A stretch of 64,000 nt of DNA from Argopecten irradians (Eukaryota): assembly GCF_041381155.1 (NCBI RefSeq), contig NC_091144.1, positions 38,796,437 to 38,860,436 on the forward strand. The letters run 5' to 3'. Shown piece by piece: positions 840 to 59,984 of the stretch. Under the pieces are notes generated by a model. The model was not told the DNA's origin, did no database searches, and saw only the letters and a list, made by a program, of their open reading frames with translations. Every line of letters starts with the position of its first letter. Position 1 is the stretch's first letter. A program made the position numbers and the translations under genes.

Positions 840-3165
840 AAACATACAAGTATCCACACTAACGTGAGTTACATACAAGTATTCATACCAACCTTCTGTG
901 TTACATACAAGTATCCACACCAACCTTCTGTCTGTGTTACATACAAGTATCCACACCAACCTTCTGTGTTACATACAAGTATCCACACCAACCTTCCTCT
1001 GTGTTACATACAAGTATCCACACCAACCTTCTGTGTTACATACAAGTATCCACATCAACCTTCTGTGTTACATACAAGTATCCACACCAACCTTCTGTGT
1101 TACATACAAGTATCCACACCAACCTTCTGATAATGAGTTACATACAAGTATCCGCACCAACCTTATTTCTGTGTTACATACAAGTATCCATAACAATCTT
1201 CTACAAGTATCCATACAAACCTTCTGTGTTACAAACAAGTATCCACATCAACCTTCTGTGTTACATACAAGTATCCACACCAACCTTCTGTGTTACATAC
1301 AAGTATCCACACCAACCTTCCTTCTGTGTTACATACAAGTATCCACAATAACCCTCTGTGTTACATGCAAGTATCCACACCAAACTTCCTTCTGTGTTAC
1401 ATACAAGTATCCACACCAACCCTCTGTGTTACATACAAGTATCCACATCAACCTTCTGTGTTACATACAAGTATCCACACCAACCTTCTGTGTTACATAC
1501 AAGTATCCACACCAACCTTCTGTGTTACATACAAGTATCCACACCAACCTTCTGTGTTACATACAAGTATCCACACCAACCTTCTGTGTTACATACAAGT
1601 ATCCACACCAACCTTCTGTGTTACATACAAGTATCCACACCAACCTTTCTTCTGTGTTACATACAAGTATCCACACCAACCTTCCTTCTGTGTTACATAC
1701 AAGTATCCACACCAACCTTCCTTCTGTGTTACATACAAGTATCCACACCAACCCTTCTGTGTTACATACAAGTATCCACACCAACCTTCTGTGTTATATA
1801 CAAGCACCACACCAACCCTCTGTGTTACATACAAGTATCCACACCAACCTTCCTTCTGTGTTACATACAAGTATCCACACCAACCTTCCTTCTGTGTTAC
1901 ATACAAGTATCCACACCAACCTTCCTTCTGTGTTACATACAAGTATCCACACCAACCTTCTGTGTTACATACAAGTATCCACACCAACCTTCCTTCTGTG
2001 TTACATACAAGTATCCACACCAACCTTCTGTGTTACATACAAGTATCCACACCAACCTTCTGTGTTATATACAAGCACCACACCAACCCTCTGTGTTACA
2101 TACAAGTATCCACATCAACCTTTTTTCTGTTACATACAAGTATCCACACCAACCTTCCTTCTGTGTTACATGCAAGTATCCACACCAACCTTCTGTGTAC
2201 ATACAAGTATCCACACCAACCTTCTGTGTTACATACAAGTATCCACACCAACCTTCCTTCTGTGTTACATGCAAGTATCCACACCAACCTTCTGTGTTAT
2301 ATACAAGTATCCACACCAACCTTCCTTCTGTGTTACATACAAGTATCCACACCAACCTTCTGTGTTACATACAAGTATCCACACCAACCTTCCTTCTGTG
2401 TTACATACAAGTATCCACACCAACCTTCTGTGTTATATACAAGCACCACACCAACCCTCTGTGTTACATACAAGTATCTACACCAACCTTCCTTCTGTGT
2501 ACATACAAGTATCCACACCAACCTTCCTTCTGTGTTACATACAAGTATCCACACCAACCTTCCTTCTGTGTTACATACAAGTATCCACACCAACCTTCTG
2601 TGTTACATACAAGTATCCACATCAACCTTCTGTGTTACATACAAGTATCCACACCAACCTTCTGTGTTACATACAAGTATCCACACCAACCTTTCTGTGT
2701 TACATACAAGTATCCACACAACCTTCTGTGTTACATACAAGTATCCACACCAACCTTCTGTGTTACATACAAGTATCCACACCAACCTTCTGTGTTACAT
2801 ACAAGTATCCACACCAACCTTCTGTGTTACATACAAGTATCCACACAACCTTCTGTGTTACATACAAGTATCCACACCAACCTTTTGTGTACATACAAGC
2901 ATCCACATCAACCTCTCATCTGTGTTACATAAAAGTATCCACACCAACCTTCTGTGTTACATACAAGTATCCACACCAACCTTCTGTGTTACATACAAGT
3001 ATCCACACCAACCTTCTGTGTTACATACAAGTATCCACACCAACCTTCTGTGTTACATACAAGTATCCACACCAACCTTCCTTCTGTGTTACATACAAGT
3101 ATCCACACCAAACTTCTGAGTTACATACAAGTATCCACACCAACCTTCTTTCTGTAATTGTGTAA
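840..3165. repeat. Satellite array with a 32-bp unit (gtgttacatacaagtatccacaccaaccttct), ~68 copies; variants of 34-38 bp carry a ccttccttct insertion
   Basis: The period is 32 bp (acaccaacct at 1541 and again at 1573). The ORF track shows the same peptide cycling through all three frames, which is the signature of a repeat unit whose length is not a multiple of 3. Confidence 0.95.
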
Positions 3166-3544
3166 ACATCACTCAGGGCATGCTTACATGAAATATGTAT
3201 ATATTATACTTCCTGAATATAGATTTAATATTCAGTTTCTTTTCACATGAATATTTTATCTTCATTATATTTTATTTACCTCTAAGAACAATCAACTACT
3301 ACAAACACAGGTCCTTGACCACTTCTACCTTGTTTTTGTATACAATAATATTATAGCTCGGAATTGGTAGATGAAACAAATGCCTGTGCATGAATGATAG
3401 AAAATTGTGCTGTGATAGTGTGCAAGGGTATGTACGAACGAGAATGGTTATTTATGTGTGGAAGGAGAGAGGGAATGTATGAATGAAAAGGAGAAATAAG
3501 ATTATTGCTAGATGGAAAGAATGATGACCCAGACGTAGAAAGAA

Positions 3545-4335
3545 GGATGTAAGTTGATGGACGGATGAGTGTAATGTGAGGTGAGGACGTAGGACGGATG
3601 AGTGTGACGTAATGTGAGGTCGATGGACGGATGAGTGACGGTATGTGAGGTCGATGGACGGATGAGTGACGGTATGTGAGGTCGATGGACGGATGAGTGA
3701 CGTAATGTGAGGTCGATGGACGGATGAGTGACGTAATGTGAGGTCGATGGACGGATGAGTGACGTATGTGAGGTCGATGGACGGATGAGTGACGTAATGT
3801 GAGGTCGATGGACGGATGAGTGACGTAATGTGAGGTCGATGGACGGATGAGTGACGGTATGTGAGGTCGATGGACGGATGAGTGACGGTATGTGAGGTCG
3901 ATGGACGGATGAGTGACGGTATGTGAGGTCGATGGACGGATGAGTGACGGTATGTGAGGTCGATGGACGGATGAGTGACGTAATGTGAGGTCGATGGACG
4001 GATGAGTGACGGTATGTGAGGTCGATGGACGGATGAGTGACGTAATGTGAGGTCGATGGACGGATGAGTGACGTAATGTGAGGTCGATGGACGGATGAGT
4101 GACGTAATGTGAGGTCGATGGACGGATGAGTGACGTAATGTGAGGTCGATGGACGGATGAGTGACGTAATGTGAGGTCGATGGACGGATGAGTGACGTAA
4201 TGTGAGGTCGATGGACGGATGAGTGACGTAATGTGAGGTCGATGGACGGATGAGTGACGGTATGTGAGGTCGATGGACGGATGAGTGACGGTATGTGAGG
4301 TCGATGGACGGATGAGTGACGGTATGTTAGGTTGT
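3545..4335. repeat. Satellite array with a 31-bp unit (gaggtcgatggacggatgagtgacgtaatgt), ~25 copies; the + strand is G-rich
   Basis: The period is 31 bp (gtcgatggac at 3681 and 3712). Units alternate between cgtaatgt and cggtatgt variants. Confidence 0.95.
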
Positions 4336-5089
4336 TGACCGAGTCTGTCTAACATGTTATACTAGCAATCCTTCACAGAGAAGGCCAAATGGATGACATG
4401 TTAGGATTATTTTGTACTTTATTGACACAAATTTATTTGTTGAAATAAAGATTTCTATGTCTTAACACATTTGCCATCTTTGTCTTTTCCCAAGCCTCTT
4501 CCATTCTACTCGCCATTTGTCTGTCGTCATCCGACCATAAATATTTTACATTTTCGACTTCTTCTTCCCAAACCACTGAACCAAATAAATTGATTTTTTA
4601 CAGAACTATTTTATAACCAAAGAACTATAAAAATAGTTAGTTATATTGTCTTCAACCCCCAGGAGCCTGTTGGATGGGGCCAAAAAGGGTCAAAATGACA
4701 AAAAACCCACAAATGGTAGAATCAAATACTTTTATATATGTAAGGCTCATAACAACCTTCACATCAATTTGGCTATTTCCATAAAAACTACATAATTCTA
4801 CGACGAAATTAAGCATTAGATATCACTCAAATTGCATTGGTAGCATCATTATGGATGGGGTCTGAGGGGGGCAACTTTGCTATTTCCAATTGTAAGAGTT
4901 TTTGTGATAATTACCACATCACCCAGATGGGCGATACAGGCCCTCTTGGTGGGCCTCTTGTTTAACTTCATTGGGGTATGAAAGAAATTTTGTTTGCAAA
5001 CTACGTGGACTCGCACAAAAGTTTGCAAAACAGAAATTCAACTAAACCAATTCAAATCTATATTCACTAAACCATTTAAAGTGAACAGT

Positions 5090-23314: not shown

Positions 23315-24067
23315 TCACAGTAGCGAATCCCCCGATAGAACACCACGATAATGGTATTTTTTACTCGAGCCTTTCAAACTCGAAGACTTATCTGGACTTA
23401 TAGTAGACTGGAGAGATCTTGGAATATGTTTAGTTTGTATAGTTGTCCGCTCATCATCAGAGCTAGATGTACTACTGTTGTATTTTTGTCGAACTACATC
23501 CGGGTCATCGTCATACCACACAGTATCATCCGGAACCTCCACGTCGACTTGACTATCACAACCTTCCGAAAGAGCGTCAAACCCGGAAGTAGTTACCACA
23601 GTTTCCGGTGGGCCACACGCCTCAAGACTGTCAAGCCAGTTTTGACATTTTCTTGTTGTCTCTTGCATGTAAACACTATCATCATACAATTGTTTTCGGA
23701 GACCTATATCCTTGGGATTGGTTTCCGAAAGGTTCATTGTCATATCAACGTCGTCCGGAAGATCCTCGGATTCTATACAATACTGACTTCGTGTCCGATG
23801 TATTTTAGCACGCATGCGCTTCCCTGGTTTGGAAGACCGAGGAAGGAGGTTGATTTGCTGTTGCTGTGACACAGGTGAACTTTTTGACCCACCTTCGTCC
23901 GAAGACGCCCTCTGGTGTTGAACTTTGAGATCAAGCCAGCACGGTGGTTTTGGCGGTTTAGCTGTCAGGAACGCGTGTACGGAAGTACAGTTGCCCGGTC
24001 GTACAGAGCTTTTGTACATTCTACGATCCTGGTTTATAATATAGAAACACAAATTTAATGTATCCAT
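23315..24067 (-). CDS. Hypothetical protein (250-aa ORF; acidic, Ser-rich, low-complexity); possibly one exon of a larger gene
   Basis: It is a 753-nt ORF whose GC content is clearly above the AT-rich surroundings. I recognise no domain. An acceptor-like tttctatattataaaccag|G lies just inside the 5' end (minus strand), so the true exon may begin near MYKSS. Confidence 0.35.
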   Translation of the reverse strand: MDTLNLCFYIINQDRRMYKSSVRPGNCTSVHAFLTAKPPKPPCWLDLKVQHQRASSDEGGSKSSPVSQQQQINLLPRSSKPGKRMRAKIHRTRSQYCIESEDLPDDVDMTMNLSETNPKDIGLRKQLYDDSVYMQETTRKCQNWLDSLEACGPPETVVTTSGFDALSEGCDSQVDVEVPDDTVWYDDDPDVVRQKYNSSTSSSDDERTTIQTKHIPRSLQSTISPDKSSSLKGSSKKYHYRGVLSGDSLL

Positions 24068-31038: not shown

Positions 31039-33229
31039 CGGTTGGGTATTTGGTTCACTGTATCTTTTAACTCTATCACCATGCACTTTCATCATCACTT
31101 CATTTGTCTTACAAACAGCTAATAATCGTAGGAAATGCGATTTAGTCGGTTATATTCATGGGTCAAAATTCTCATGATTTTTTTTTAATAGAAAAAAATA
31201 TCCGGGTACTCCGGTTTCTTCCTACTCAAAGACCCCATCGTGCTCTTACAACCGGGTCATCGAAAGTTTTTTTTGTATACGTTATGTACCTTGTTTTCGC
31301 GATCGATGTAAAATCTTTAAAGCTTATATCTTGAAAATGGAATTAAAAGTTACCGCAAAAATGATTTCCATATTACAGGTAAAGAAACTAGTATATCGAT
31401 TAAACTCTTACTATTGAAAGACAATGCTCTTAACAAATATGATATTTAATTATCCAAAGGCAATGGCAGTGTTAATTAAATCATCTCTTATATTAAATCT
31501 TACTGTTAAAATTCAAAGCTCTTAACAAATATTATATTTAATTACCCCCAAGGTCATGGCAATGTCACATTTAAACCATCTCTAAGAATAGTTTTTTTTT
31601 ATATATGGTGTGTCGTTTGATCTAAATACCTAATTAACGTAGGTTTCTATCATACCTGTATGTGGGTAACAAAAAAGTTTGTGCTAGATATAAATTTGAT
31701 TGATAAATTGTGGAGAAAATCTTATTAGAAATCTGATATATTAATTGTGATTTATTATATTATATTTTTATCTGGAAATCTGCAATACAATTGAATGGAT
31801 CTTATTATCTAAATTGAAAACTTTACAATATTATTGAGTATAAGTTAAGGAGAGAAATATTAATATAGATATTCATTCACGAAGTTTGAAATGTGATATC
31901 AACATGTCCATTCATATTGTCAAGTTAGAAATTAAGATCTAAAACGAACTGTGTATGAGAGGGGGCCTTTAGGCTATAGGTAGGAATATAGAGGACATTT
32001 AAATATATACTATCTATCTACGAACGTCGTTCACGCTATTGTAAGTCTTTAACGTGATCGAAACTGATAGCTTATCATCCACCTGGAGATATGTATATGA
32101 TACTACCATTCACATACCTGTATATCCAAAAACTTAACTATTACTTCTAATAAAGCGACGTGTCTTCACAGTTGCATGAAATTGATAAATTGATATCGGA
32201 ATATCTTACAGGGGTTATGTAAGTAAATTGGTATATTGTATAGGTAAATTATTGTTGACATGAACTATGCAAAGTATATATATTGTGGAAAAAATATCAA
32301 TAAAACACAATATAAAAAGGTTTTAAAACATGAGTGCTACATATATAACACGCATTCATAATAATATTAGTATCGTATAATATATAATTATCATCATAGC
32401 CAAATTCAATGTTAAACGATTGAATATTTTTATTATCCTCGATTTTGAACACTTAGATTGTGTGTAATAGGCAGTGAAACAATGTCATGAGACAAAGAAT
32501 GTGTCATGTTACATTGTACTCTGTTTTTTGGGTTTTTTTTTTTTTGACTTTGAAATAAAATCACGTGTTTTGTCGGTTGACAAATCTTTTCAAATCTGCT
32601 TGTAATGTTATTATGTGTATATATCAAATTATCGTCCCTTGTAACTGACAATAATACCAATTCACGATTGATGATAACATATTATTAATTGTAATTTAAT
32701 TAAATCTAGATCTATCGCGATATGAGCATTATGAAAACCTTCATAAGGTCAGAAGGATGTTTACATTAAAATGCTTAGGTATGTATTAAAATATCAAAAT
32801 GACTTCCCACCGTCGTAATATGACATCAACTGTCAATATTATTCAATGTAATAACATTCGTGTACATGTCATGAACGTCGTATTGTAAAGGGGTACACTA
32901 GGGACATCAAACAATGCAATAAATGCAAAGTATGTGTGACGAATAGAAAAAGGGATGCCGTAGGCACAAATAGAAATACTTATAACGGAAATTTTCAATC
33001 GCGTTTTTTTACGTCGAAGTATTATAACAATATAATGAAATCGATATGTAATTGTAGCACATTTAATAATAAGACAGCTGCTATCATGTTGTGTTATACT
33101 TTCCATATAGAGAAGAGTTATTACTCATAATTGTATATATAACGTTTGAAATTTGTTAAAGAATATAGCATTCGCGTTCTGGTTTAAATTATCAATAAAT
33201 TATCAACAATAAAGCGTAATGACACACAC

Positions 33230-33510
33230 ACGTATGTAGAATCTATCACTCTCGCATTTACACTTAATTTATTGAAATTTATTAACTTACACATATACAG
33301 ATATATAAAAGTTCTTTATATTCAGAAACACCTACACTAGAAGATATATATTATTGACTTATACACACACAGATAAATACAATTTCTTTATAATCAAAAA
33401 CATTTACGCTGTCTAAAAGACGTATTGACATCTATTGACAGACACACATACATACTAATATATGCAATTTCATTATAATAAAGAAACGTTTACTATAAAT
33501 CAACAACTAA
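33230..33510. repeat. Degenerate tandem repeat with a ~70-bp unit, ~4 copies (acacacac...atacaatttctttata.tcaaaaaca..tac)
   Basis: Read directly. Confidence 0.6.
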
Positions 33511-35567
33511 ATAACAACAATAAAATATAAAAAATAACTTACCTTCAGGATGTAAACATATTAAACGTGCGGCGTGACGCCAGATATGTAAACACAAACA
33601 CAAATCTACATTTCAATCCCGATTACTCGCTACCGGTCGTGGAGTACTACTAAGATATGTAGAGCAAGTTTGAACAATACTTTAGCAAAACATATATGTC
33701 CTAGCTTTGACAGTCAGCGAGTGAGTGTAGGTAAATAGCGTAGTATTGTTCACAAAGCTATTGTCAGATCTAGGTCTGAACAAGCACACACCTGCCCAGC
33801 CATCTACTTATAAACTGTTTGAGATGAATGCTTTACTTTACGCAACGAACTCCCGAGCTTTAAATCAAACGCACCCAAATGGAGTCTGACGCCTTGTATG
33901 TAGAACTTTAAATCAAGATCGCCTAAATAAAGTCGGACGCCCATAAATGGCAGTCATTGAGTGAGAAAAAATATTTATCACATAAAAACTGCATCGGTTT
34001 ATGCTTGAGTTTGTAATTTGAATGGTGTCTGATTTTCTTTATGAGGTCGGCTGTTTCATTGGTCTAATAAGTTGTCGACATAATAAACAATTAATTAATC
34101 TGACACCTCATTCTGGCGGTAAGATAAAAATCAAACAAAAGAGATACAAATATTTTAAAAGTAGGACTAAGTAGGAACTACCGGAAGAGTTAAACAATAA
34201 ATACAGGAATCAAAATCATCAACACACAGTCCAGTGTTTTAAACCATATTGCAATTACTTGTATCTCTCTTCTGAGGCATTTAACGTCAACAGGAACGAT
34301 GATTGTCTGAGGATAGTAAAGTTAACGCCCGCTTAAATAAAAGCTTCAACCCCTCCAATAAAAAGACTAAAGTATAGTCATTGTCTCAAACCGATGGACT
34401 GCAAATTGAATGTTAAAGAGGACCAGAATATCAGTGGGTTTTTTCTTCCCTTAACTACCAAACTCCAAAGTTTCCTATGGGATATAGATAATACCGTATA
34501 GCCTGTTATTTTCGCGGAGATGATATTTTCGCGAGTTCGCGAGTCATTGCTATTAATTTAACTTACTCAATTTTTATATGTTAACATAGAAATATTTAGT
34601 CTTGCTATTCTTACTGACATAATGATACTGAAAACCATCTAATTTTTTGCGTGCGATAGCGTTCGCGAGTGAAAAGAAACCTCGAACATAAATCATCGCG
34701 AAAATACAGTTTGAGAAGAACATTATTGCCCTGAATCATGAAAAAGTTGTTACACATGAAAACGCGAAATAAAGTAGTCGTGAAAAGCAGTTGGTTTACA
34801 TTTTATATACATCGATACAATATTTGATATTATATCTCTTTAAACTAACATCTATTAAGACAAAATTATAGATAATTTTTAAAGTTACAATTTCAAATTA
34901 AATTGTAAAGGTAAAAATGTGATGAATTATCAAGAGAAATAAAAAAAGAAATATGCGATTTTAGAAGGTGACCGTAATTAAATTATTATAGGTATCAGTT
35001 TAACCTGTCAAATCTGCCGATAATTAATTTTATTTTCTCTCAAGTATGTGATAAAAATTTACTTTTGCTGCCATAATTAAAAAAGCTATGGAGGTCGTGA
35101 AGATTTATGACAATATATGTACGGCGTCCCTAAATGTCATATATCTAGCATCCTCGATAACGTCCTTCCCTGGAATATGTCATAGCAAATGAAAGCTTGT
35201 GTGACATATTATGTCTATCAGAAGGTAGGGTAGTATCATAGCTTTTATGTGCATCAAAAAAATTGGTTGATCTAATTTTCTCCGAAAATGCTTTCAACTG
35301 ACACCAGACGAAGAAGGGGTGACACTTACAAATATGTGCTAGCCAGTAATCAGCAGTTATCGAAAGCGTCGTTACTGTTTTCAAGTTTATCTACAAGAGA
35401 CCAGAAAGTCTTACTAGCAGGTTCAATCCTCAACTACATTAAAAAGGTAAGACGATAGAAGACCACATCAAGTAATAGTTACAATGGCAAAAGGAGGGAT
35501 ACAAGTCACACCCATTTTACCTTACGTATTATTATATGCAAGGTATTTGTAGATAAACTCGAGATAT

Positions 35568-38129: not shown

Positions 38130-38350
38130 CTTAGTTTCGCATGCGAGTAAATTTCGTGTGATTCGAGCAGTTACTTAAAAAAAATAGGTAAGCATACACA
38201 CACGAAATTAAGTAACCTCGAAAAAATAGGTAGGCATATAACGCGAAATTAAGTTAGCGCGAAAACGTAGGAAGGCATAAACACGTGAAATTAAGTTAAA
38301 TCGAAAAAGAAGGTAGGAACAAATACGCGAAATATAGTTACCGCGAGAAT
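38130..38350. repeat. Tandem repeat with a ~42-bp unit, ~5 copies (cgaaattaagtaacctcgaaaaaataggtaggcatataacg). It lies ~0.75 kb upstream of the mucin-like gene
   Basis: Read directly. Confidence 0.8.
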
Positions 38351-38720: not shown

Positions 38721-39074
38721 ATTAAGTTTACCTACGTATGACCTTATTTGTCACTTAACAGTAATTGTCATACATTATAGTTGAACTAAATTATCATAAA
38801 ATGTCTATTGATAATCAAAATGTCCATAACATCCTTAGAGATAAATATAAATTACCCGGGGCGCTACTTCATTCCATTATAATTTCTATAAGCTACTGTA
38901 ATGGATCTCGCGCATTGCTTTGTCCGTTTCTTTTGTCATGTTCCGATACCGACAAATTAACCGTATTTTACAATGCAGTCGTGACACTACCGGAGAAGAA
39001 CAAGACGTTTCAAATTTTGAAGTTTAAAAATCGAAAAGAACATTATTTCCAGGAACCTGCAAATAACAATAACC

Positions 39075-41798
39075 ATGAAACCAACGTTTATTGCATTCAT
39101 ATTTCGACTTTTAATCTCTACCTTTGACCTGATCACCGATTGGTTGTTGTTTTACGAACTCAGTGGTTTAGAACAAGGTCTCGTGTATGGCTCGTGCTCT
39201 GAAGCCATATTAGGATTTTTCTGTTTCTTCTGCTTCATCGGGAGTGTGATGTATATCGCCGAGCTGGTCTTAAATGTCTTCGATGCATTTTCATCAAAAG
39301 AAGATTTGCTTCCCAATGGTTTCCTTGACAACGTCAACATGGCGTCCCTGTGGATGGAGGACATCCCTATTGTCCTGATCTGTGTGTACATCGCGGGTTG
39401 TAGAGATAAAGCGGTCACTGTTTTACTACTGGTCAAGGCTCTGTCCACTCTGGTGGAAGTTTGCGTGAATGTGGGCATAATGATTGCCAACCATATCCAT
39501 AGTAGACAACATACAGAAGTCGTTAAATTTGACAAAAAAGAGCCGTCAAAATGGCTGAAGGTTCCTCTAGTACTCAGCTTATTTATTATGATGCTCGGGT
39601 CAATGTTGGTGTTTGGATTGGGGACCTATTTCACGGATTCAAAAAATGTCGTCAACCTTGCTAGTTCCTTGAATTTTAATTTCCAAACATACAGTGATTT
39701 GGACTACTTAGAAAAGTCAGGGATATACATGAACTTTGACCCTGAGCAATCAGACGTGGTAACTATGGATACCTCGGAATGGATCTTACTTCTTGATTTA
39801 GAGAATATGACATCTGCTGCGTCGAGTTCTTTTATTGTCCGTGTAACGTACGATTCTAACCCAAATACGAGATTATGGATTCAGTCGACAGTTAATGATG
39901 ATATCGAGACTCCAGAATCATCTACTAATAAATGTTACTCCACACAAACATCGCCTCTATCACTGATTACAACGTGTGCTTCCGACCTTCAAATGAACCC
40001 TAACGCCAAATCTATTGTGCTAAAATTTGTCTACGAGAGTCCAAGTAACTCCAAACCACTTGGTGACGTATACTACAATTACGGCATGGCGGCTGTTGAA
40101 GCTGCCGAACCTTGTTTTTTACCTGGGGTAAAACCTGGGTTCTCACTTAGCTATTTCAAAGCTACTTCGACCGAACACAATCTGGACCCTCTGATGTCAC
40201 TCACAAACAGTAGCGGAGCGTATTATAAGACTGGAAGTGATCTTCAGGATGTTTCGGATGCGTGGAGGACTGGCAAGTTCTGGTGCGGTCATACCGGTAG
40301 GTCCAGACCTAAACTAGAATCTTCGATCAGCGTTCCTTGTCTTCTTCGGGATTTGAGGGTAGCTGAATCAAATTCGACTTTACCATCAACTTATAGTGTC
40401 GAATCCACAACTTCACTTTCAACCCTTCATACGGATCCTGGTATCAGTACGTCAACTCAGACGTCTTTTGGAAATGCAAGTACCTTCACAGCAACCAACA
40501 TTCGAACAACGCCTTCTTCAAAAACAACTCCTTCTCAAGCATCTACAACAACAAAAGCTAAAATTTCAATTTCTGACAATGTCACAAACTCTAAATCTCC
40601 AACTCGTTCAACAACAAAAACAGCAAAATCAACAACAGCAACAACAGGAAAATCCACAACAACAACAACAGCATCATCAACAACAACACCAAAGACAATT
40701 ACACCAACGACAACAACAACCACCACACCACCTTCAAATCCTTCATCAACATCATCGACAACAACACCAACGACAATAACACCAACGACAACAACAACCA
40801 CCACACCACCTTCAAATCCTTCATCAACATCATCAACAACAACACCAACGACAACAACAACCACCACACCACCTTCAAATCCTTCATCAACATCATCAAC
40901 AACAACACCAACGACAACAACAACCACCACACCACCTCCAAATCCTTCATCAACATCATCAACAACAACACCAACGACAACAACAACCACCACACCACCT
41001 TCAAATCCTTCATCAACATCATCAACAACATCAACAACAACCACCACACCACCTCCAAATCCTTCATCAACATCATCAACAACATCAACAACAACCACCA
41101 CACCACCTCCAAATCCTTCATCAACATCATCAACAACAACACCAACGTCAATAACACCAACGACAACAACAACCACCACACCACCTTCAAATCCTTCATC
41201 AACATCATCAACAACAACACCAACGTCAATAACACCAACGACAACAACAACCACCACACCACCTCCAAATCCTTCATCAACATCATCAACAACAACACCA
41301 ACGTCAATAACACCAACGACAACAACAACCACCACACCACCTTCAAATCCTTCATCAACATCATCAACATCATCAACAACAACACCAACGTCAATAACAC
41401 CAACGACAACAACAACCACCACACCACCTTCAAATCCTTCATCAACATCATCAACAACAACACCAACGTCAATAACACCAACGACAACAACAACCACCAC
41501 ACCACCTTCAAATCCTTCATCAACATCATCAACATCATCAACAACAACACCAACGTCAATAACACCAACGACAACAACAACCACCACACCACCTTCAAAT
41601 CCTTCATCAACATCATCAACAACAACACCAACGTCAATAACACCAACGACAACAACAACCACCACACCACCTTCAAATCCTTCATCAACATCATCAACAT
41701 CATCAACAACATCAATAATAACATTTACACCAACGACGACAACAACAACCCCATCGCAGTCTACTTCGCCAACAACTTCATTACTCCCATTCAGTTAA
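39075..41798 (+). CDS. Multi-pass membrane protein with a C-terminal Thr/Pro/Ser-rich mucin-like tandem-repeat domain (907 aa, single exon)
   Basis: The ORF is uninterrupted for 2724 nt, and the start aaccATGa has A at -3. The N-terminal 190 aa hold about five hydrophobic helices: PTFIAFIFRLLISTFDLITDWLLFY, AILGFFCFFCFIGSVMYIAELVL, IPIVLICVYIAGC, VTVLLLVKALSTLVEVCVNVGIMIA and VPLVLSLFIMMLGSMLVFGLG. A ~330-aa middle region carries N-glycosylation sequons (NMTS, NSTL, NSSG, NAST, NVTN) and scattered Cys. The last ~370 aa are near-perfect repeats of TTTPT(SITP)TTTTTTTPPSNPSSTSS. Confidence 0.7.
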   Translation: MKPTFIAFIFRLLISTFDLITDWLLFYELSGLEQGLVYGSCSEAILGFFCFFCFIGSVMYIAELVLNVFDAFSSKEDLLPNGFLDNVNMASLWMEDIPIVLICVYIAGCRDKAVTVLLLVKALSTLVEVCVNVGIMIANHIHSRQHTEVVKFDKKEPSKWLKVPLVLSLFIMMLGSMLVFGLGTYFTDSKNVVNLASSLNFNFQTYSDLDYLEKSGIYMNFDPEQSDVVTMDTSEWILLLDLENMTSAASSSFIVRVTYDSNPNTRLWIQSTVNDDIETPESSTNKCYSTQTSPLSLITTCASDLQMNPNAKSIVLKFVYESPSNSKPLGDVYYNYGMAAVEAAEPCFLPGVKPGFSLSYFKATSTEHNLDPLMSLTNSSGAYYKTGSDLQDVSDAWRTGKFWCGHTGRSRPKLESSISVPCLLRDLRVAESNSTLPSTYSVESTTSLSTLHTDPGISTSTQTSFGNASTFTATNIRTTPSSKTTPSQASTTTKAKISISDNVTNSKSPTRSTTKTAKSTTATTGKSTTTTTASSTTTPKTITPTTTTTTTPPSNPSSTSSTTTPTTITPTTTTTTTPPSNPSSTSSTTTPTTTTTTTPPSNPSSTSSTTTPTTTTTTTPPPNPSSTSSTTTPTTTTTTTPPSNPSSTSSTTSTTTTTPPPNPSSTSSTTSTTTTTPPPNPSSTSSTTTPTSITPTTTTTTTPPSNPSSTSSTTTPTSITPTTTTTTTPPPNPSSTSSTTTPTSITPTTTTTTTPPSNPSSTSSTSSTTTPTSITPTTTTTTTPPSNPSSTSSTTTPTSITPTTTTTTTPPSNPSSTSSTSSTTTPTSITPTTTTTTTPPSNPSSTSSTTTPTSITPTTTTTTTPPSNPSSTSSTSSTTSIITFTPTTTTTTPSQSTSPTTSLLPFS
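40690..41700 (+). repeat. In-frame coding tandem array, ~15 units of 57, 66 or 81 nt, encoding a mucin-like PTS repeat
   Basis: The units are near-identical at nucleotide level (ccaacgacaacaacaaccaccacaccaccttcaaatccttcatcaacatcatcaacaacaaca), with pct/ccc and tca-ata indel variants. The antisense ORFs that overlap this region come from the repeat, not from genes. Confidence 0.9.
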
Positions 41799-41991: not shown

Positions 41992-42245
41992 GAACGGTTA
42001 TGCATAAAAATCAGTCTGCGCTAAAATAATTTGTTTTACAGTATACAGTTGTTGACTGGAGTTGAGGGCAACAGACGATTTGTTGGACGCAAAGACAGAC
42101 TTTTGCCCGAAGTCGAATGCATAAAAATCAGTCTGCGCTAAAATAATTTGTTTTACAGTATACAGTTGTTGACTGGAGTTGAGGGCAACAGACGATTTGT
42201 TGCACGCAAAGACAGACTGTTGCCCGAAGTCGAAGGCAACAGCTT
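41992..42245. repeat. Tandem duplication, 2 copies of ~122 bp, containing short hairpins (gggcaacagacgatttgttg...cagact.ttgcccgaagtcgaa)
   Basis: 41992-42113 and 42114-42235 are near-identical. The half-sites GGGCAACAG and CTGTTGCCC are inverted, and a third partial half-site follows at 42270-42285 (ttgttgcccgaaaacc). Confidence 0.8.
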
Positions 42246-43034
42246 GTGTGAGGGTCCAACAAACCATTTGTTGCCCGAAAACCCAGTCGATAACTGTAGT
42301 GTTATACCCATTATTATTATCATATCTTACATTAACGTCACGAATTGTAGCTGTAACGTCACTCCCCGTCCAACATTTTTAAATCAGTCGATTTGAACAG
42401 TTCTTTGGACAGCTCGACTGAATAGTACAGTTATTGTCATTTTGTAAATGGAGTTTATAAAGAAACTAGATTATATGTTATAGGGAGTATAACAATAGTT
42501 TTTAGTGAAATTGTATCTTTCAAAATTTATCAATTTTACCGTCAGTTGATAATAAAGATGATTATAAGACGTCACAAGTCTCAGCGTCGTTTTGTGATTA
42601 CGTCATATGAATATTTTCGGTTGTCGGTTTTATTGCGAAGTCAACTTTCAAACTGTCTATAGATGTGCATCTTTAATTAAGGATAACTTAAATAGATTTT
42701 TATTTAGATAAAACACAAAATCTGAGTGTACTCTAAATAAACCGGAAGTGGTTTATGATGAGGGTACACTAAGATTGTTGTGTTATATCTTCATAACATC
42801 AAACAATTATTCAAATAAGTCCTTATCAATGAATTAACTACAGATAAACATTGATAAAAGAAATTCATTTTGGGACTCTCTTGTCTACGAAATCATTACG
42901 CCGTTATCTCAGCCAATCCGAAGCGACGTTACAAACGGTGACGTCATTCATTTTTTCCTTTATTGGTTGATGAAGTAATTTTTAAAGTCAATGAAAATTC
43001 TCGTTACAAACATTCCTAGAGGAATTCATCTTGA

Positions 43035-53227: not shown

Positions 53228-54274
53228 TCATTCCTCCTTCTTCATGGCCACGTGACCATTGCTATGTCCGTTCATATGTCGGTCATTTTTCAGGTAGCCT
53301 ACACTTCTCGCCTGTGGCCCTGACCTTTTGTCGAAGATAAAGTCCCAAACGACCTTGACCCATGACGTATGGTAGGGGTAATCGTAATATTCGGGTGCGA
53401 TCTTTTTCAGTTCCGGAAGTTTGTGATAGGGGATATAAGGAAAGTCATGGTGCTCTATATGGTATCCAACATTGAACAATACGAAGTTCAGTGGACCGTA
53501 ATAAGATGTCGTTCCCTGGGTCTCGTTATTGTTGAAAAGGTAATGCTCCGAGATAAAATGTCCGGCAAGAGGATGAAAGCCAAGCGCCATCAGGGTTCCC
53601 AATAGAAGATACACAAGAGATTTGACCCCAAAAGTCGCCACGATGATGGCGTTGAAGGTCATCTGCACCGCGGTGTTAATGATTTCCCAGCCAGTGATTG
53701 GCTTAGGGCTCTTGTAGAATGGACGGATAGCGTGAATGATTGGATGAACCATAAGCCATATAATCTTTGTAATTGGATGCCGGAATAAATAACTTTCAAG
53801 CCGAGTAGGTATGTCTACGTCTTTGTTTTCTTCGCCGAGGTATCTATGATGGTCCGCGTGGTACTTCCGGTAGCTGATCGCCATTGGAGCTACTATAGGA
53901 AGATTACACCATAAACTCAAAGCTCTGTTTAATTTAGGGTGGCTATGTCCAAAAGCTAAATTATGTCCTATTTCGTGTATGGCGCTCCCTAGGGAGTGGT
54001 TAAGAACACCGCCAAAACAGTAGGCGAGGATCGCAATCGTTGTCCATGACGCGTCTTGGACCATCCATGCGGCAAAGATCTGCACAAACACTTCCGCTGT
54101 GACGATGTAAGCAATTTTAGGGTCATAACCCATCAGTTTCTTTATTTGGGGATATTTCTTCAGGATTTCTTGCCTCCGAGGAGAGTGTGGTTCCTCTTTG
54201 TAAATCCATTCTTCTTCGTCTGTTGTCATGCGCAGTCCTAGACTTCCGAACTTTGTCAGCCACTTTAACGCCAT
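53228..54274 (-). CDS. DEGS1: Sphingolipid delta(4)-desaturase / dihydroceramide desaturase (DEGS1/DES1, ifc family), 348 aa, single exon
   Basis: The translation carries the three His boxes HEIGHNLAFGH, HADHHRYLG and HIEHHDFPYIPYHKLPELKKIAPEYYD. Also present are KYPQIKKLMGYDP, NLPIVAPMAISYRKYH, NKDVDIPT, KPITGWEIINT, GKSLVYLL, HPLAGHFISEHY and SYYGPLNFVLFNVGYH. These are collinear with animal DEGS1. The start acaaaATGGcg has a good Kozak context. Confidence 0.9.
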   Translation of the reverse strand: MALKWLTKFGSLGLRMTTDEEEWIYKEEPHSPRRQEILKKYPQIKKLMGYDPKIAYIVTAEVFVQIFAAWMVQDASWTTIAILAYCFGGVLNHSLGSAIHEIGHNLAFGHSHPKLNRALSLWCNLPIVAPMAISYRKYHADHHRYLGEENKDVDIPTRLESYLFRHPITKIIWLMVHPIIHAIRPFYKSPKPITGWEIINTAVQMTFNAIIVATFGVKSLVYLLLGTLMALGFHPLAGHFISEHYLFNNNETQGTTSYYGPLNFVLFNVGYHIEHHDFPYIPYHKLPELKKIAPEYYDYPYHTSWVKVVWDFIFDKRSGPQARSVGYLKNDRHMNGHSNGHVAMKKEE

Positions 54275-54480: not shown

Positions 54481-55454
54481 ACTACCTCGAAATGTCATAG
54501 ATTGGTCTATTTCTTAAATATTCAGGTAGGTGTTACCTTTGGAGTGTTTCACACTTCGTGCATGAAGGGATGGACCCTTATTAGCTGCAAAAACAGAAAG
54601 AGTGTGTGTATGCATTTCAAATATCTTCGATCGGATTAAAACCATTTTGCATAGCTAATTGCTATATTCATTGGATTGTTTAATTGACTTTTAACTTTAC
54701 TATGCCGCCATGTCACCCAATGCAATTTAACACTTCAAACCGATACTTACTCGGTTTTTCGGTTTAATTATTTCAATGTCCTAGTAACAGCCAGATTTAT
54801 TCAAAGACTTGCCAACTTTATATGATGGAGGAAAGCCAGAGTACCAGGAGAAAAAAACACCGATCTACGGTCAGTACATGGCAATTTCTCCCACAGCGAA
54901 TTCAAACCCGCAATCCTGAGATGGAGGTCTTGAGGTAATATATCGCTAAATTTCGTGGTAAATTTCCGGAAATCTTCGGAAATATGTTTCCGAAGATTAC
55001 CGAAATTTTCTCCGAGGTGATTAGATTGATGTCGGGCAATCTAAACCACTCGGTCAACGCGGCCCAAGCTCGCAAGAGAGGTAATTATGTAATATCCAAA
55101 AATGGAATAACAACGTGTTTTTGTGAAATAAAAAAAACTTGTGTTTGGATGTTTTTGTTTTGTAACAAGATGACTTAATTACGTATTGACGCTTGAGGTT
55201 AATTAGCGGTCCAGCTGTTGTCGCGTGTCCATAGTTATCAGTGCAAAACACGAAAGCGAAATCAATACAAAACATTGAGAAACGTGCAGCTTAAAACAGC
55301 TATCCTATTAGCATAATGGACTACATCCTCGTATCTTTCTTGTATTGATAGATATGTATATATATGTGTAACGTGTGTATGTTAGAATGTTTCTTTCTTT
55401 ATTTATGTATTGTTTTCTGTAAACTCTTCAATATTGGAGGAAATAAAGGAAATA

Positions 55455-59350: not shown

Positions 59351-59762
59351 AAAATTGTTGAGACCACTGTTTGGCTAACAGCTGATCTCTAAACAATTTT
59401 ACTGTCAGGACGATGTCATTCCTAACTGTTGATATTGGATTCAGGAATAGCATTCACACTAAAACATATATATTGCATAACTAGCGATAAACAATGACAT
59501 AATCTATTGTTTGGGTGCCACTGTGTTGCGGTTATAATCGATAGGACAAAACGATTGTCTTGTGTAATCCTCATTCAGGCATATACACATATTGTTCCGT
59601 TAAAAAATTGTTCAAAACAGGACGTGTCAGCGAGGCTGGATGGTTATGCTAAGAAGATATGGCAGTGTGCAATAAACTGTTAGGCATATCAATTCATGAC
59701 GTATATTCATATTTATATGCTATATCGTTCATATAAGGTGTACATTTTTTTATTGTCCGGGA

Positions 59763-59984
59763 GGGGCCGCGGTGGCCGAGAGGTTAAGATGTCACGACAT
59801 ATTACCACAAGCCCTCCACCTCTGGGATGCAGGTTCGAATCCCATGTGGGGCAGTTGCCAGGTACTGACCGCTGACCGGTGGTTTTTCTCCGGGAACTCC
59901 GGCTTTCCTCCACCAACAAACCTGGCACGTCCTTACATGACCCTGGCTGTTAATAGGATGTAAAACTAAACAAAACAAAACAAT
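59763..59984 (+). mobile_element. tRNA-derived SINE (~220 bp) with an A-rich tail and a 13-bp TSD TTATTGTC(C/T)GGGA
   Basis: The head ggggccgcggtggccgagaggttaag (box-A-like) ... gggatgcaggttcgaatccca (box B, GGTTCGAATCC) is tRNA-like. The body is ggcagttgccaggtactgaccg... and the tail is aaaactaaacaaaacaaaacaa. The flanking direct repeats are ttattgtccggga at 59750-59762 and ttattgtctggga at 59985-59997. Confidence 0.8.

What the first reader, a model, noticed from the sequence alone, without database searches (positions are those of the whole stretch)
39075..41798. Single-exon gene fusing a ~5-helix membrane domain to a long mucin-like PTS repeat tail
This 907-aa uninterrupted ORF is the largest non-repeat-artifact coding feature in the window. 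Its architecture is unusual. The first ~190 aa form a compact multi-pass hydrophobic domain that begins at residue 3, so it is a signal-anchor rather than a cleaved signal peptide. It contains conserved-looking charged residues inside helices, for example D in LITDWLLFY and E/K in KALSTLVEVCVNV. A Cys- and N-glycan-sequon-bearing globular region of ~330 aa follows. The final ~370 aa are an almost perfectly repetitive Thr/Pro/Ser array, which is the hallmark of dense O-glycosylation. I do not recognise the membrane domain as any named family. A membrane-anchored mucin whose anchor is polytopic, rather than a single TM, is not a standard architecture, so it may be a lineage-specific surface glycoprotein. 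There are no in-frame stops in 2.7 kb of an AT-rich genome, and the region upstream is GC-poor. The 120-aa ORF just upstream (38765-39127) is in a different frame and looks like 5' leader.
Basis: partly seen in the sequence, partly recalled or inferred. Interest (0 to 1): 0.72.

Follow-up and report, generated by a model that had tools for sequence, protein, structure and literature searches.

The report
Scallop DUF8357 membrane protein with mucin tail
This is a real, intact scallop gene for a five-helix membrane glycoprotein of an uncharacterised invertebrate family (Pfam DUF8357) that gained a long sugar-coated "mucin-like" tail in a few scallop species; the gene is sound, its architecture is already in public databases under misleading "mucin-5AC-like" names, and it shows a weak, unproven resemblance to XKR lipid scramblases.

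Summary
Window 39075-41798 (+) is an uninterrupted 907-codon ORF with four parts:
- a 5-helix membrane domain (aa 3-187);
- a Cys- and sequon-bearing beta-rich ectodomain (aa 188-425);
- a Ser/Thr-rich linker;
- about 14 in-frame Thr/Pro/Ser repeats.

It is a genuine gene. The locus is collinear with Pecten maximus, and the core has dN/dS of about 0.15. The annotated orthologue CDSs are also single-exon.

Residues 1-425 are the full-length module of Pfam DUF8357 (PF27623). About 184 cluster representatives were found, in molluscs, annelids, nemerteans and flatworms, and none is characterised. Nearly all members stop right after the last conserved Cys. Only this protein and its two closest scallop relatives carry PTS tails, and the tails do not align with each other. 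The mucin tail is therefore a recent, fast-evolving, lineage-specific addition.

Topology signals indicate N-in/C-out, so the tail is a free extracellular end and not a stalk.

A confident AF2 model (pLDDT 88) matches no solved fold significantly. TM3-TM4 shows a reproducible but sub-threshold resemblance to the ExxPQL helix pair of XKR scramblases. The tail-bearing clade has lost two conserved glutamines in that region.

Verdict: a new member of a known but uncharacterised family, of moderate interest.

The parts
39075..41798 (+). Complete single-exon CDS, 907 codons plus TAA stop at 41796-41798
   Evidence: ORF list. The upstream in-frame stop is at 39018. Nucleotide similarity to the P. maximus orthologue starts 9 nt before the ATG and runs to 40342. 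dN/dS for the core is 0.15.
39075..39635 (+). Five-helix transmembrane domain (aa 1-187), the N-terminal half of the DUF8357 module. Conserved intramembrane polar residues are D18, D22-W23, E63, E95-D96-x-P98, C109-R110-D/E111 and K121.
   Evidence: Hydropathy. AF2 helices 3-30, 43-72, 81-109, 116-147 and 159-184 at pLDDT mostly above 90. Conservation across 63 members.
39315..39515 (+). TM3-TM4 helix pair (aa 81-147) carrying the E-D-x-P-(Q) motif, the region with sub-threshold similarity to XKR alpha4-alpha5 (ExxPQL). In this protein the family's Q99 and Q118 are replaced by I and L.
   Evidence: hhalign matches query 82-129 to XKR8 128-174 with P=0.0014, against 0.1-0.16 for reversed controls. 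The family TM consensus hits PF09815 at E=0.0064. In the XKR HMM versus decoy test, every top hit maps to this region.
39636..40349 (+). Beta-rich ectodomain (aa 188-425), the C-terminal half of the DUF8357 module. It has five conserved Cys (287, 301, 347, 404, 422), the motif W397-x-T-G...C404..T-G...P412...C422, and sequons at N244 and N378.
40350..40651 (+). Non-repetitive Ser/Thr-rich linker (about aa 426-525) with sequons at N433, N467 and N502. It is not alignable to orthologues.
   Evidence: Translation. The protein alignment loses homology after C422. blastn similarity to P. maximus ends at 40342.
40652..41750 (+). Coding minisatellite of about 14 in-frame units of 18-29 aa (consensus TTTPTSITPTTTTTTTPPSNPSSTSS), forming the mucin-like PTS tail. 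A short degenerate C-terminus ends ...SLLPFS, with no hydrophobic GPI or TM signal.
   Evidence: TRF periods of 78, 63, 165 and 243 nt are all multiples of 3, with up to 92% identity. Composition is T49/S24/P19 %.

Best explanation
The ORF is a functional single-exon-CDS gene of a pectinid scallop. It encodes a polytopic surface glycoprotein of the spiralian DUF8357 family.

**Shown**
- The conserved unit is aa 1-425. It comprises a 5-helix membrane bundle with a set of conserved charged or polar residues inside the helices, followed directly by a disulfide-type, N-glycosylated beta-rich domain.
- This unit is under purifying selection and is found from flatworms to cephalopods.
- The C-terminal ~480 aa Ser/Thr/Pro-rich extension exists only in this protein and its two nearest scallop relatives. 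It is built from an in-frame, recently homogenised minisatellite and does not align between species.

**Inferred**
- Topology is N-terminus in, C-terminus out. The ectodomain would sit on the bundle, possibly tied to it by C109 in the outer TM3-TM4 loop pairing with the odd fifth ectodomain Cys.
- The PTS region would be densely O-glycosylated and would project as a free, extended, brush-like tail from the cell surface or a lumenal face. This would turn an ancestral membrane module into a membrane-tethered mucin-like glycocalyx or mucus-interface component.
- The conserved buried D/E/K network suggests that the core does work within the membrane (lipid or ion handling, or partner binding) and is not a passive anchor.
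- TM3-TM4 resembles the XKR scramblase ExxPQL helix pair. The tail-bearing clade has lost two conserved glutamines there, which hints at a shift in function when the tail was gained.
For: **Gene is real and intact**
- ORF and start context.
- Homologues have E-values of 1e-195 to 5e-97, and the start (MKPTF versus MRPTF) is conserved.
- The locus is collinear with P. maximus.
- dN/dS is 0.15 for the core, 0.20 for the TM part and 0.12 for the ectodomain.
- Orthologue CDSs are single-exon.

**Family**
- The PF27623:DUF8357 tag is on the four homologues and is named.
- 184 representatives have E<1e-3. Most are 400-490 aa and cover profile positions 1-420.
- Taxa include Pectinidae, Haliotis, Sepia, Paralvinella, Lineus, Paragonimus and Schistosoma.

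**Tail is lineage-specific**
- Only P0001 and P0002 have PTS-rich C-termini among the long members.
- The tail-less M. yessoensis locus has no PTS remnant downstream.
- Repeat periods are multiples of 3 and the units stay in frame.

**Topology**
- Sequons are confined to the ectodomain.
- K/R is enriched at the TM4 end and in loop 4-5, and the outer loops are acidic.
- Six Cys are conserved.

**Structure**
- The AF2 model has pLDDT 88.4 and pTM 0.86.

**XKR hint**
- hhalign with controls.
- Pfam scan of the consensus.
- HMM versus decoys.
- Functional importance of the matching XKR8 residues: PMC8500837.
Against: - There is no transcript, protein or glycosylation evidence for this locus. Openness of the repeat frame is weak evidence on its own, because AC-rich repeats lack stops in several frames.
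- The disulfide pattern and the C109-ectodomain link are inferred only, because model coordinates could not be inspected.
- The window protein was not scored directly against the PF27623 model, which is absent from the local Pfam copy. Membership rests on full-length homology to tagged proteins.
- The biochemical function of the core is unknown for every member.
- The XKR similarity is below every curated threshold. It covers only TM3-TM5, and TM1 and TM2 do not align to XKR alpha1 and alpha2.
- Whether the tail-less Argopecten and Mizuhopecten proteins are orthologues that lack a tail or are paralogues was not resolved.
Confidence: 0.8

Rival explanations
1. The DUF8357 membrane domain is a true, distant, single-repeat relative of the XK-related (XKR) lipid scramblases. 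On this reading the protein, or at least its tail-less relatives, moves or senses phospholipids through a buried acidic/basic path. The fused beta-rich ectodomain would play the role that the separate Ig-protein basigin plays for XKR8.
- hhalign places family E95, P98, Q99 and Q118 on XKR8 E141, P144, Q145 and Q163 with P=0.0014, against 0.1-0.16 for reversed controls.
- The family consensus hits PF09815 at E=0.0064 in the same region.
- 22 of 152 members beat every reversed decoy against an XKR HMM, and all map to XKR positions about 125-220.
- Individual matches are striking, for example 'EDIPQLILGLVVLLCRGEAISQW' against the XKR consensus 'EgtPqLvLvLaivlesgqaelsqy'.
- XKR8 E137, E141, D26 and D30 are essential for scrambling (PMC8500837). 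DUF8357 also has a conserved DxxxD in TM1.
Against: - All scores are below curated or accepted thresholds: 16 bits against a gathering score of 24.8, and an hhalign probability of 18%.
- Only 2 of 63 members hit PF09815 individually, amid similar noise hits to other TM families.
- In the consensus scan an unrelated transporter family, CitMHS, scores better.
- TM1 and TM2 do not align to XKR alpha1 and alpha2, and the one weak N-terminal match is topologically inconsistent.
- Foldseek finds no XKR match.
- Family members are related to each other, so the decoy test overstates independence.
- The window protein itself lacks Q99 and Q118.
Confidence: 0.3
2. The PTS tail is not part of the mature protein. 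On this reading the repeat is a non-coding or 3'-UTR minisatellite that happens to be open in frame, or it is removed by splicing or by proteolysis after the ectodomain. The functional product would then be only the ~425-aa DUF8357 module, as in most family members.
For: - Nearly all family members end within a few residues of C422.
- AC-rich repeats are open in several frames on both strands.
- An R-D-L-R (minimal RxxR) motif follows C422 in the window protein.
- There is no transcript evidence.
Against: - No stop codon occurs for 482 codons after C422. These include about 100 codons of non-repetitive linker in an AT-rich genome.
- Two independent orthologues also continue in frame into PTS-rich sequence of different repeat type.
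- All repeat periods and unit-length variants are multiples of 3.
- The other forward frames are interrupted: the only other forward-frame ORF of 80 aa or more here is 127 aa.
- The RxxR motif is not conserved in P. maximus or Y. balloti.
Confidence: 0.1
3. It is a conventional mucin: a gel-forming MUC5AC-like mucin or a MUC1/MUC3-type membrane mucin, as the database names of its orthologues suggest.
For: Orthologues are named 'mucin-5AC-like' and 'mucin-3A-like' by NCBI. The PTS tandem repeat domain is real.
Against: - There are no VWD, C8, TIL, CK, SEA, EGF or any other Pfam domains at E<=1.
- The PTS region is C-terminal to a 5-TM bundle, not N-terminal to a single C-terminal TM helix.
- Homology to the named proteins lies entirely in the DUF8357 core and not in the PTS region.
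- The names are low-complexity artefacts.
Confidence: 0.02

Closest known systems
Pfam PF27623 (DUF8357), uncharacterised spiralian membrane proteins; closest members P. maximus 'mucin-5AC-like' (836 aa, 68% identity over the core) and Ylistrum balloti 'mucin-3A-like' (503 aa, 56-58%)
   Same: - The alignment over aa 1-425 is end to end and collinear.
- It has the same 5 helices and the same conserved D22-W23, G35-L-V-x-G39, P98, C109 and K121.
- It shares the five ectodomain Cys and the W-x-T-G...C...T-G...P...C C-terminal motif.
- The CDS is single-exon, and the locus is collinear with P. maximus.
- The two closest members also have PTS tails.
   Different: - Typical members (about 400-490 aa) have no tail at all.
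- The window protein's tail (26-aa TTTPTSITPTTTTTTTPPSNPSSTSS units) is unrelated in sequence to the P. maximus tail (10-aa TTSTTPVTVN units) and much longer than the Y. balloti tail.
- The tail-bearing clade has replaced the family's conserved Q99 and Q118 with hydrophobic residues.
XK-related (XKR) phospholipid scramblases (Pfam PF09815; XKR8-basigin 7DCE/8XEJ, XKR9 7P14/7P16, XKR4 9BOJ)
   Same: - Both have a helical membrane bundle with conserved acidic and basic residues inside the bilayer.
- The E-x-x-P-Q-[LI] motif, followed one helix later by a conserved Q, aligns to XKR8 E141, P144, Q145 and Q163.
- There is a DxxxD in the first helix.
- XKR8 works with a beta-sandwich ectodomain protein (basigin), whereas here a beta-rich ectodomain is fused.
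   Different: - This protein has 5 TM helices and no re-entrant hairpins, against 8 TM plus 2 half-helices in two repeats.
- It has no C-terminal cytosolic regulatory tail or caspase site.
- The Pfam score is below threshold.
- TM1 and TM2 are not alignable.
- The large covalently attached ectodomain and the mucin tail have no XKR counterpart.
Membrane-tethered mucins (vertebrate MUC1, MUC3, MUC4, MUC12, MUC13, MUC17 type)
   Same: It has a long tandem-repeat Pro/Thr/Ser domain predicted to be densely O-glycosylated and displayed on the extracellular side of a membrane-anchored protein. Repeat sequence and copy number also evolve quickly.
   Different: - It has no SEA or NIDO-AMOP-VWD module and no signal peptide.
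- The anchor is an N-terminal 5-TM bundle, not a single C-terminal TM helix.
- The PTS domain is the free distal C-terminus beyond a globular domain, not a stalk between the membrane and the N-terminus.

Membership tests
Pfam DUF8357 (PF27623) | Full-length sequence homology to proteins carrying the PF27623 annotation | tested here: met
   phmmer E-values are 1.4e-195 to 5.4e-97 against four proteins tagged PF27623. The tag is resolved as DUF8357. The alignment is collinear over aa 1-425 with 119 invariant columns among 5 sequences. A profile of these finds 184 representatives, most of them matching positions 1-420.
Pfam DUF8357 (PF27623) | Score above the gathering threshold of the PF27623 HMM itself | not testable with these tools
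   The local Pfam-A copy lacks this model. hmmscan returns 0 families for the window protein and for P0001, and no DUF8357 hit for any of the four tagged homologues.
XK-related protein family (PF09815) | Score above the PF09815 gathering threshold (24.8 bits) | tested here: not met
   The window protein has no hit at E<=1. Only 2 of 63 members hit, with a best E-value of 0.0072. The family consensus scores 16 bits, E=0.0064.
XK-related protein family (PF09815) | ExxPQL signature helix (XKR8 E141, P144, Q145) followed by the alpha5 Gln (Q163) | tested here: inconclusive
   The family consensus W-x-E-D-x-P-Q-x-x-I-N ... F-Q-L-x-K aligns to it with hhalign P=0.0014, against 0.1-0.16 for controls. 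22 of 152 members beat all decoys at this position. The window protein keeps E95, D96 and P98 but has I99 and L118.
XK-related protein family (PF09815) | Two-repeat architecture with 8 TM helices plus 2 re-entrant helices | tested here: not met
   The model has only 5 helices, followed by a beta-rich domain. TM1 and TM2 do not align to XKR alpha1 and alpha2.
Gel-forming mucins (MUC2/MUC5AC type) | VWD-C8-TIL assemblies and a C-terminal cystine-knot flanking the PTS domain | tested here: not met
   There are no Pfam families at E<=1 in the window protein and none of these domains at E<=10 in the four orthologues.
Membrane-tethered mucins (MUC1/MUC3/MUC4 type) | SEA (or NIDO-AMOP-VWD) module and a single C-terminal TM helix, with the PTS domain N-terminal to it | tested here: not met
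   There is no SEA or other domain. The hydrophobic segments are all within aa 3-187, and the C-terminus ...TSPTTSLLPFS is not hydrophobic.
Mucin-like domain (generic) | Tandem repeats rich in Pro, Thr and Ser | tested here: met
   Residues 526-907 are 92% P+T+S. There are about 14 units of 18-29 aa, and TRF reports an array at 40652-41750. O-glycosylation itself is not testable with these tools.

The most novel reading that the evidence does not exclude
DUF8357 may be a previously unrecognised, Spiralia-specific, single-repeat offshoot of the XKR scramblase fold. It would carry its own covalently fused beta-rich ectodomain, a one-chain analogue of the XKR8-basigin pair. In one scallop lineage a copy lost two glutamines of the polar intramembrane path (Q99 and Q118) and gained a rapidly evolving O-glycosylated tail. 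A lipid-handling membrane module would thus have been converted into the polytopic anchor of a new kind of membrane-tethered mucin.
Probability: 0.15. Interest if true: 0.7.

Novelty: new member of a known kind. Interest (0 to 1): 0.38.

Why it matters
**Annotation.** RefSeq names such as 'mucin-5AC-like' and 'mucin-3A-like' for these scallop genes are low-complexity artefacts. The informative part is a DUF8357 core.

**Biology.**
- The locus is a clean example of a conserved polytopic membrane module acquiring a mucin domain by in-frame minisatellite expansion within a single family of bivalves. This bears on how surface glycocalyx and mucus components arise in molluscs.
- The reproducible but sub-threshold similarity of TM3-TM4 to the XKR ExxPQL helix pair gives a first testable functional lead, lipid scrambling or lipid sensing. 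DUF8357 is present in molluscs, annelids, nemerteans and parasitic flatworms (Schistosoma, Paragonimus) and currently has no assigned function.

Tried and rejected
**Searches that found nothing**
- Pfam scans of the full protein and of aa 1-520 found nothing, because the model is newer than the local copy.
- A phmmer search of aa 1-520 against PDB sequences found nothing at E<=1. A family profile against PDB sequences gave only noise (pilus protein, TTYH2, E>0.6).
- Foldseek against PDB (best E 0.098) and BFVD viral structures (best E 0.15) gave nothing significant. The AFDB libraries were unavailable.
- Literature searches for 'PF27623' and 'DUF8357' returned no papers, and a search on 'scallop', 'mucin-5AC-like' and 'transcriptome' returned three papers, none judged from title or abstract to concern this gene.

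**Attempts that were uninformative**
- The first AF2 run, with 5 sequences, was unusable (pLDDT 38).
- The word-indexed profile search added no new members.
- An hhalign of the TM1-TM2 region against XKR alpha1-alpha2 gave no collinear match, and a global hhalign failed.

**Negative results that bear on the finding**
- A tblastn with 168 family sequences found no paralogous copies in the window.
- There is no PTS remnant downstream of the tail-less M. yessoensis gene.
- blastn found no similarity between the window and the M. yessoensis locus.
- The splice-acceptor-like ttccag upstream of the ATG is not conserved in P. maximus or M. yessoensis, so it is left open.

**Readings rejected**
- Conventional mucin: no mucin domains were found.
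- Pseudogene: the ORF is intact and dN/dS is 0.15.
Full report
**1. The observation**

The ORF finder lists 39075..41798 (+), ATG start, 907 aa. It is the longest ORF in the window. The other long ORFs are reading frames through a tandem-repeat block at 898-3165 or antisense frames of this gene's own repeat. The nearest upstream in-frame stop is at 39018.

Hydropathy shows five hydrophobic segments within aa 3-187. The middle region has Cys at 287, 301, 347, 404 and 422 and sequons at 244, 378, 433, 467 and 502. Residues 526-907 are 49% Thr, 24% Ser and 19% Pro.

Tandem Repeats Finder reports an array at about 40650-41750 with periods of 78, 63, 165 and 243 nt. All are multiples of three, and the 3' copies reach 92% identity. 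Split at the PSSTSS motif, the tail gives units of 18, 21, 26, 27 and 29 aa, so all length variation keeps the frame. The description is therefore correct, except that the conserved globular region is about 240 aa and not about 330 aa.

**2. It is a real gene**

A search of the non-repeat part against 5.8 billion proteins found four homologues, all from scallops:
- Pecten maximus 'mucin-5AC-like': 836 aa, 68% identity, E=1e-195.
- Ylistrum balloti 'mucin-3A-like': 503 aa.
- Uncharacterised proteins of 417-419 aa from Argopecten irradians and Mizuhopecten yessoensis: 42-43% identity.

The alignment is collinear from the initiator Met (MKPTFIAF against MRPTFIAF) to Cys422. In both annotated genomes the CDS is uninterrupted: 2511 nt for 836 codons plus stop, and 1254 nt for 417 codons plus stop.

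The window is collinear with the P. maximus locus. Flanking matches lie at 31.9-34.2 kb and 45.5 kb. The coding match is 74% identical, begins 9 nt before the ATG and ends at 40342, which is the end of the conserved core. Nei-Gojobori dN/dS against P. maximus is 0.15 for the core, 0.20 for the TM part and 0.12 for the ectodomain, with dS near saturation. The window holds no paralogue.

**3. What family it belongs to**

The homologues carry the precomputed Pfam tag PF27623, resolved as DUF8357. My local Pfam copy lacks this model, which explains the empty scans.

An exhaustive HMM search with a five-sequence profile of aa 1-425 found 184 cluster representatives at E<1e-3, 39 of them below 1e-30. 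Most are 400-490 aa and match profile positions about 4-420. The TM bundle plus ectodomain is therefore a single conserved module.

Named members come from several phyla:
- Pectinidae, Haliotis and the cuttlefish Acanthosepion (molluscs);
- the annelid Paralvinella;
- the nemertean Lineus;
- the trematodes Paragonimus and Schistosoma.

All are labelled uncharacterised or hypothetical. No paper in the library mentions PF27623 or DUF8357.

**4. The tail is a lineage-specific addition**

Among members of 470 aa or more, only the P. maximus and Y. balloti proteins have PTS-rich C-termini. All the others end a few residues after the conserved ...W-x-T-G...C...T-G...P...C motif, and their extra length is N-terminal.

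The three tails do not align. P. maximus uses 10-aa TTSTTPVTVN units and the window uses 26-aa TTTPTSITPTTTTTTTPPSNPSSTSS units. Nucleotide similarity stops at the end of the core. The tail-less M. yessoensis gene has no PTS-like frame in the 2 kb after its stop.

The window's C-terminus (...TSPTTSLLPFS) has no hydrophobic stretch, so there is no second anchor or GPI signal.

**5. Anatomy and topology**

With 63 full-length members as the alignment, AlphaFold gives a confident model, pLDDT 88.4 and pTM 0.86. It has five long helices (3-30, 43-72, 81-109, 116-147, 159-184) followed by a beta-rich domain of about a dozen strands (185-425).

The following residues are conserved across the 63 members:

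| Location | Residue(s) | Conservation |
|---|---|---|
| TM1 | D18 | 68% |
| TM1 | D22 / W23 | 95% / 94% |
| First loop | G35-L-V-x-G39 | 88-100% |
| TM2 | E63 | 76% |
| TM3 | E95 / D96 / P98 / Q99 | 63% / 73% / 97% / 71% |
| TM3-TM4 turn | C109-R-E | C109 98% |
| TM4 | Q118 / K121 | 76% / 90% |
| Ectodomain | C287, C301, C347, C404, C422 | 84-98% |

E128 is conserved only among close relatives.

Across the family, sequons average 4.2 in the ectodomain and about 0 elsewhere. K+R is concentrated at the end of TM4 and in loop 4-5, while loops 1-2 and 3-4 are net acidic. This fits N-in/C-out, with the ectodomain and tail outside. On this inferred topology C109 lies at the outer face. Six conserved Cys would allow three disulfides, one of them tying the ectodomain to the bundle. 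This last point is inference, because I could not inspect the coordinates.

**6. Comparison with known folds**

Foldseek finds nothing significant in the PDB (best E 0.098) or among viral models. The AFDB libraries were unavailable.

I tested this lead by sequence in six ways:
- **Individual members against Pfam.** Only 2 of 63 hit PF09815, with a best E of 0.007, amid similar noise from other TM families.
- **Profile against profile.** I built an XKR8/9/4 profile from PDB chains and 112 database homologues. hhalign's best match pairs family 82-129 with XKR8 128-174 at P=0.0014 and probability 18%. One-side-reversed controls give P of 0.10-0.16.
- **Residue equivalences.** That alignment places E95 on E141, P98 on P144, consensus Q99 on Q145 and consensus Q118 on Q163.
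- **Family consensus against Pfam.** It hits PF09815 at E=0.0064 (16 bits against a cutoff of 24.8) over the same helices. CitMHS ranks above it.
- **XKR HMM against decoys.** Scored against 152 family sequences and their reversals, 22 real sequences beat the best decoy (17.5 against 5.8 bits). All top hits map to XKR positions about 125-220 and to family TM3-TM5. One example is 'EDIPQLILGLVVLLCRGEAISQW' against the consensus 'EgtPqLvLvLaivlesgqaelsqy'.
- **TM1 and TM2.** They do not align to XKR alpha1 and alpha2.

In XKR8, the residues D26, D30, R134, E137, E141 and R183 line the putative lipid path and are required for scrambling (PMC8500837).

My reading is that the signal is reproducible and positionally consistent. 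It is confined to one helix pair and lies below every accepted threshold. Homology to XKR is possible, at roughly 30%, but not established.

The window protein and its two tail-bearing relatives have replaced Q99 with I or L and Q118 with L or M. The tail-less scallop proteins keep both glutamines.

**7. Most likely mechanism**

*Shown:*
- The 5-TM plus ectodomain module is conserved and under purifying selection.
- A recent, in-frame, rapidly diverging PTS minisatellite is appended to its extracellular C-terminus.

*Inferred:*
- The protein is inserted N-in/C-out.
- The ectodomain is disulfide-bonded and N-glycosylated.
- The tail is heavily O-glycosylated and extends as a free brush from the surface, beyond the globular domain and not beneath it.
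- The protein would thus act as a membrane-tethered mucin-like component of an epithelial glycocalyx or mucus interface.
- The conserved buried charges argue that the ancestral core does more than anchor. Lipid handling like that of XKR is the only specific lead.
- The loss of two conserved glutamines in the tail-bearing clade hints at a change of function.

Expression, glycosylation and activity were not testable here.

**8. Rivals**

- **The tail is not part of the protein (about 10%).** Against this, 482 codons are open after C422, including a non-repetitive linker of about 100 codons in an AT-rich genome. Two orthologues also continue in frame into PTS sequence of a different repeat type. 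All repeat periods are multiples of 3.
- **Conventional mucin (about 2%).** No VWD, CK or SEA domains were found, and the topology is reversed relative to membrane mucins.
- **True XKR relative (about 30%).** This is compatible with the main explanation and is treated as an added hypothesis.

**9. Novelty and score**

The gene is a new member of a known but uncharacterised family. The tail-bearing architecture is already present in RefSeq under misleading mucin names. The polytopic-anchor mucin architecture is unusual, but it turns out to be a local elaboration of a widespread DUF. The XKR lead and the Q99/Q118 loss are the only elements a specialist might find new, and both are tentative. Interest: 0.38.

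Noticed in passing
window 53228-54274 (-): An intact 348-aa ORF, uninterrupted from ATG to stop, encodes a sphingolipid delta4-desaturase (DEGS-like). It hits Pfam FA_desaturase at E=7e-27 and Lipid_DES at E=1e-16. A complete single-exon CDS could reflect the normal molluscan gene structure or a retrocopy.
   Followed up: partly
window 898-3165 (+) and 3351-4355 (-): Long tandem-repeat blocks open in several frames ('VLHTSIHTNLLCYIQVSTPTF...' and 'HRPHIxSLIRPSTSHxVTHPSIDLT...') give artefactual ORFs of 334-755 aa. GC skew is strongly negative at 1-2000.
   Followed up: no
window 42000-42238: Two 97%-identical copies of a 117-nt unit lie about 200 nt downstream of the gene's stop codon. They create small mirrored ORFs on both strands. 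The first AATAAA or ATTAAA signal after the stop is at 42551.
   Followed up: no
window 59759-59983 and 54758-54945; L001 6135-6352, 18777-19038, 19556-19675, 21562-21749: A dispersed repeat of about 200 nt is shared, at 73-85% identity and in both orientations, between this window and several places in the P. maximus locus. It is probably a pectinid SINE or MITE-like element.
   Followed up: no
window 31883-34173 versus L001 610-2478: Collinear blocks 67-81% identical to the P. maximus locus lie 5-7 kb upstream of the gene. They could be a conserved regulatory region, a 5'-UTR exon or a neighbouring gene's exons.
   Followed up: no
window 23315-24067 (-): A 250-aa Ser- and Asp-rich ORF has no Pfam match. 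It is possibly an exon-sized piece of a neighbouring gene or a chance ORF.
   Followed up: partly
window 39040-39052: A polypyrimidine-ttccag/g sequence resembling a 3' splice acceptor lies 23 nt upstream of the ATG. It is absent at the same place in P. maximus and M. yessoensis. The gene may or may not have a 5'-UTR intron.
   Followed up: partly
window 38179-38346: A 42/83-nt tandem repeat (about 4 copies, 79% identity) lies about 750 nt upstream of the start codon.
   Followed up: no
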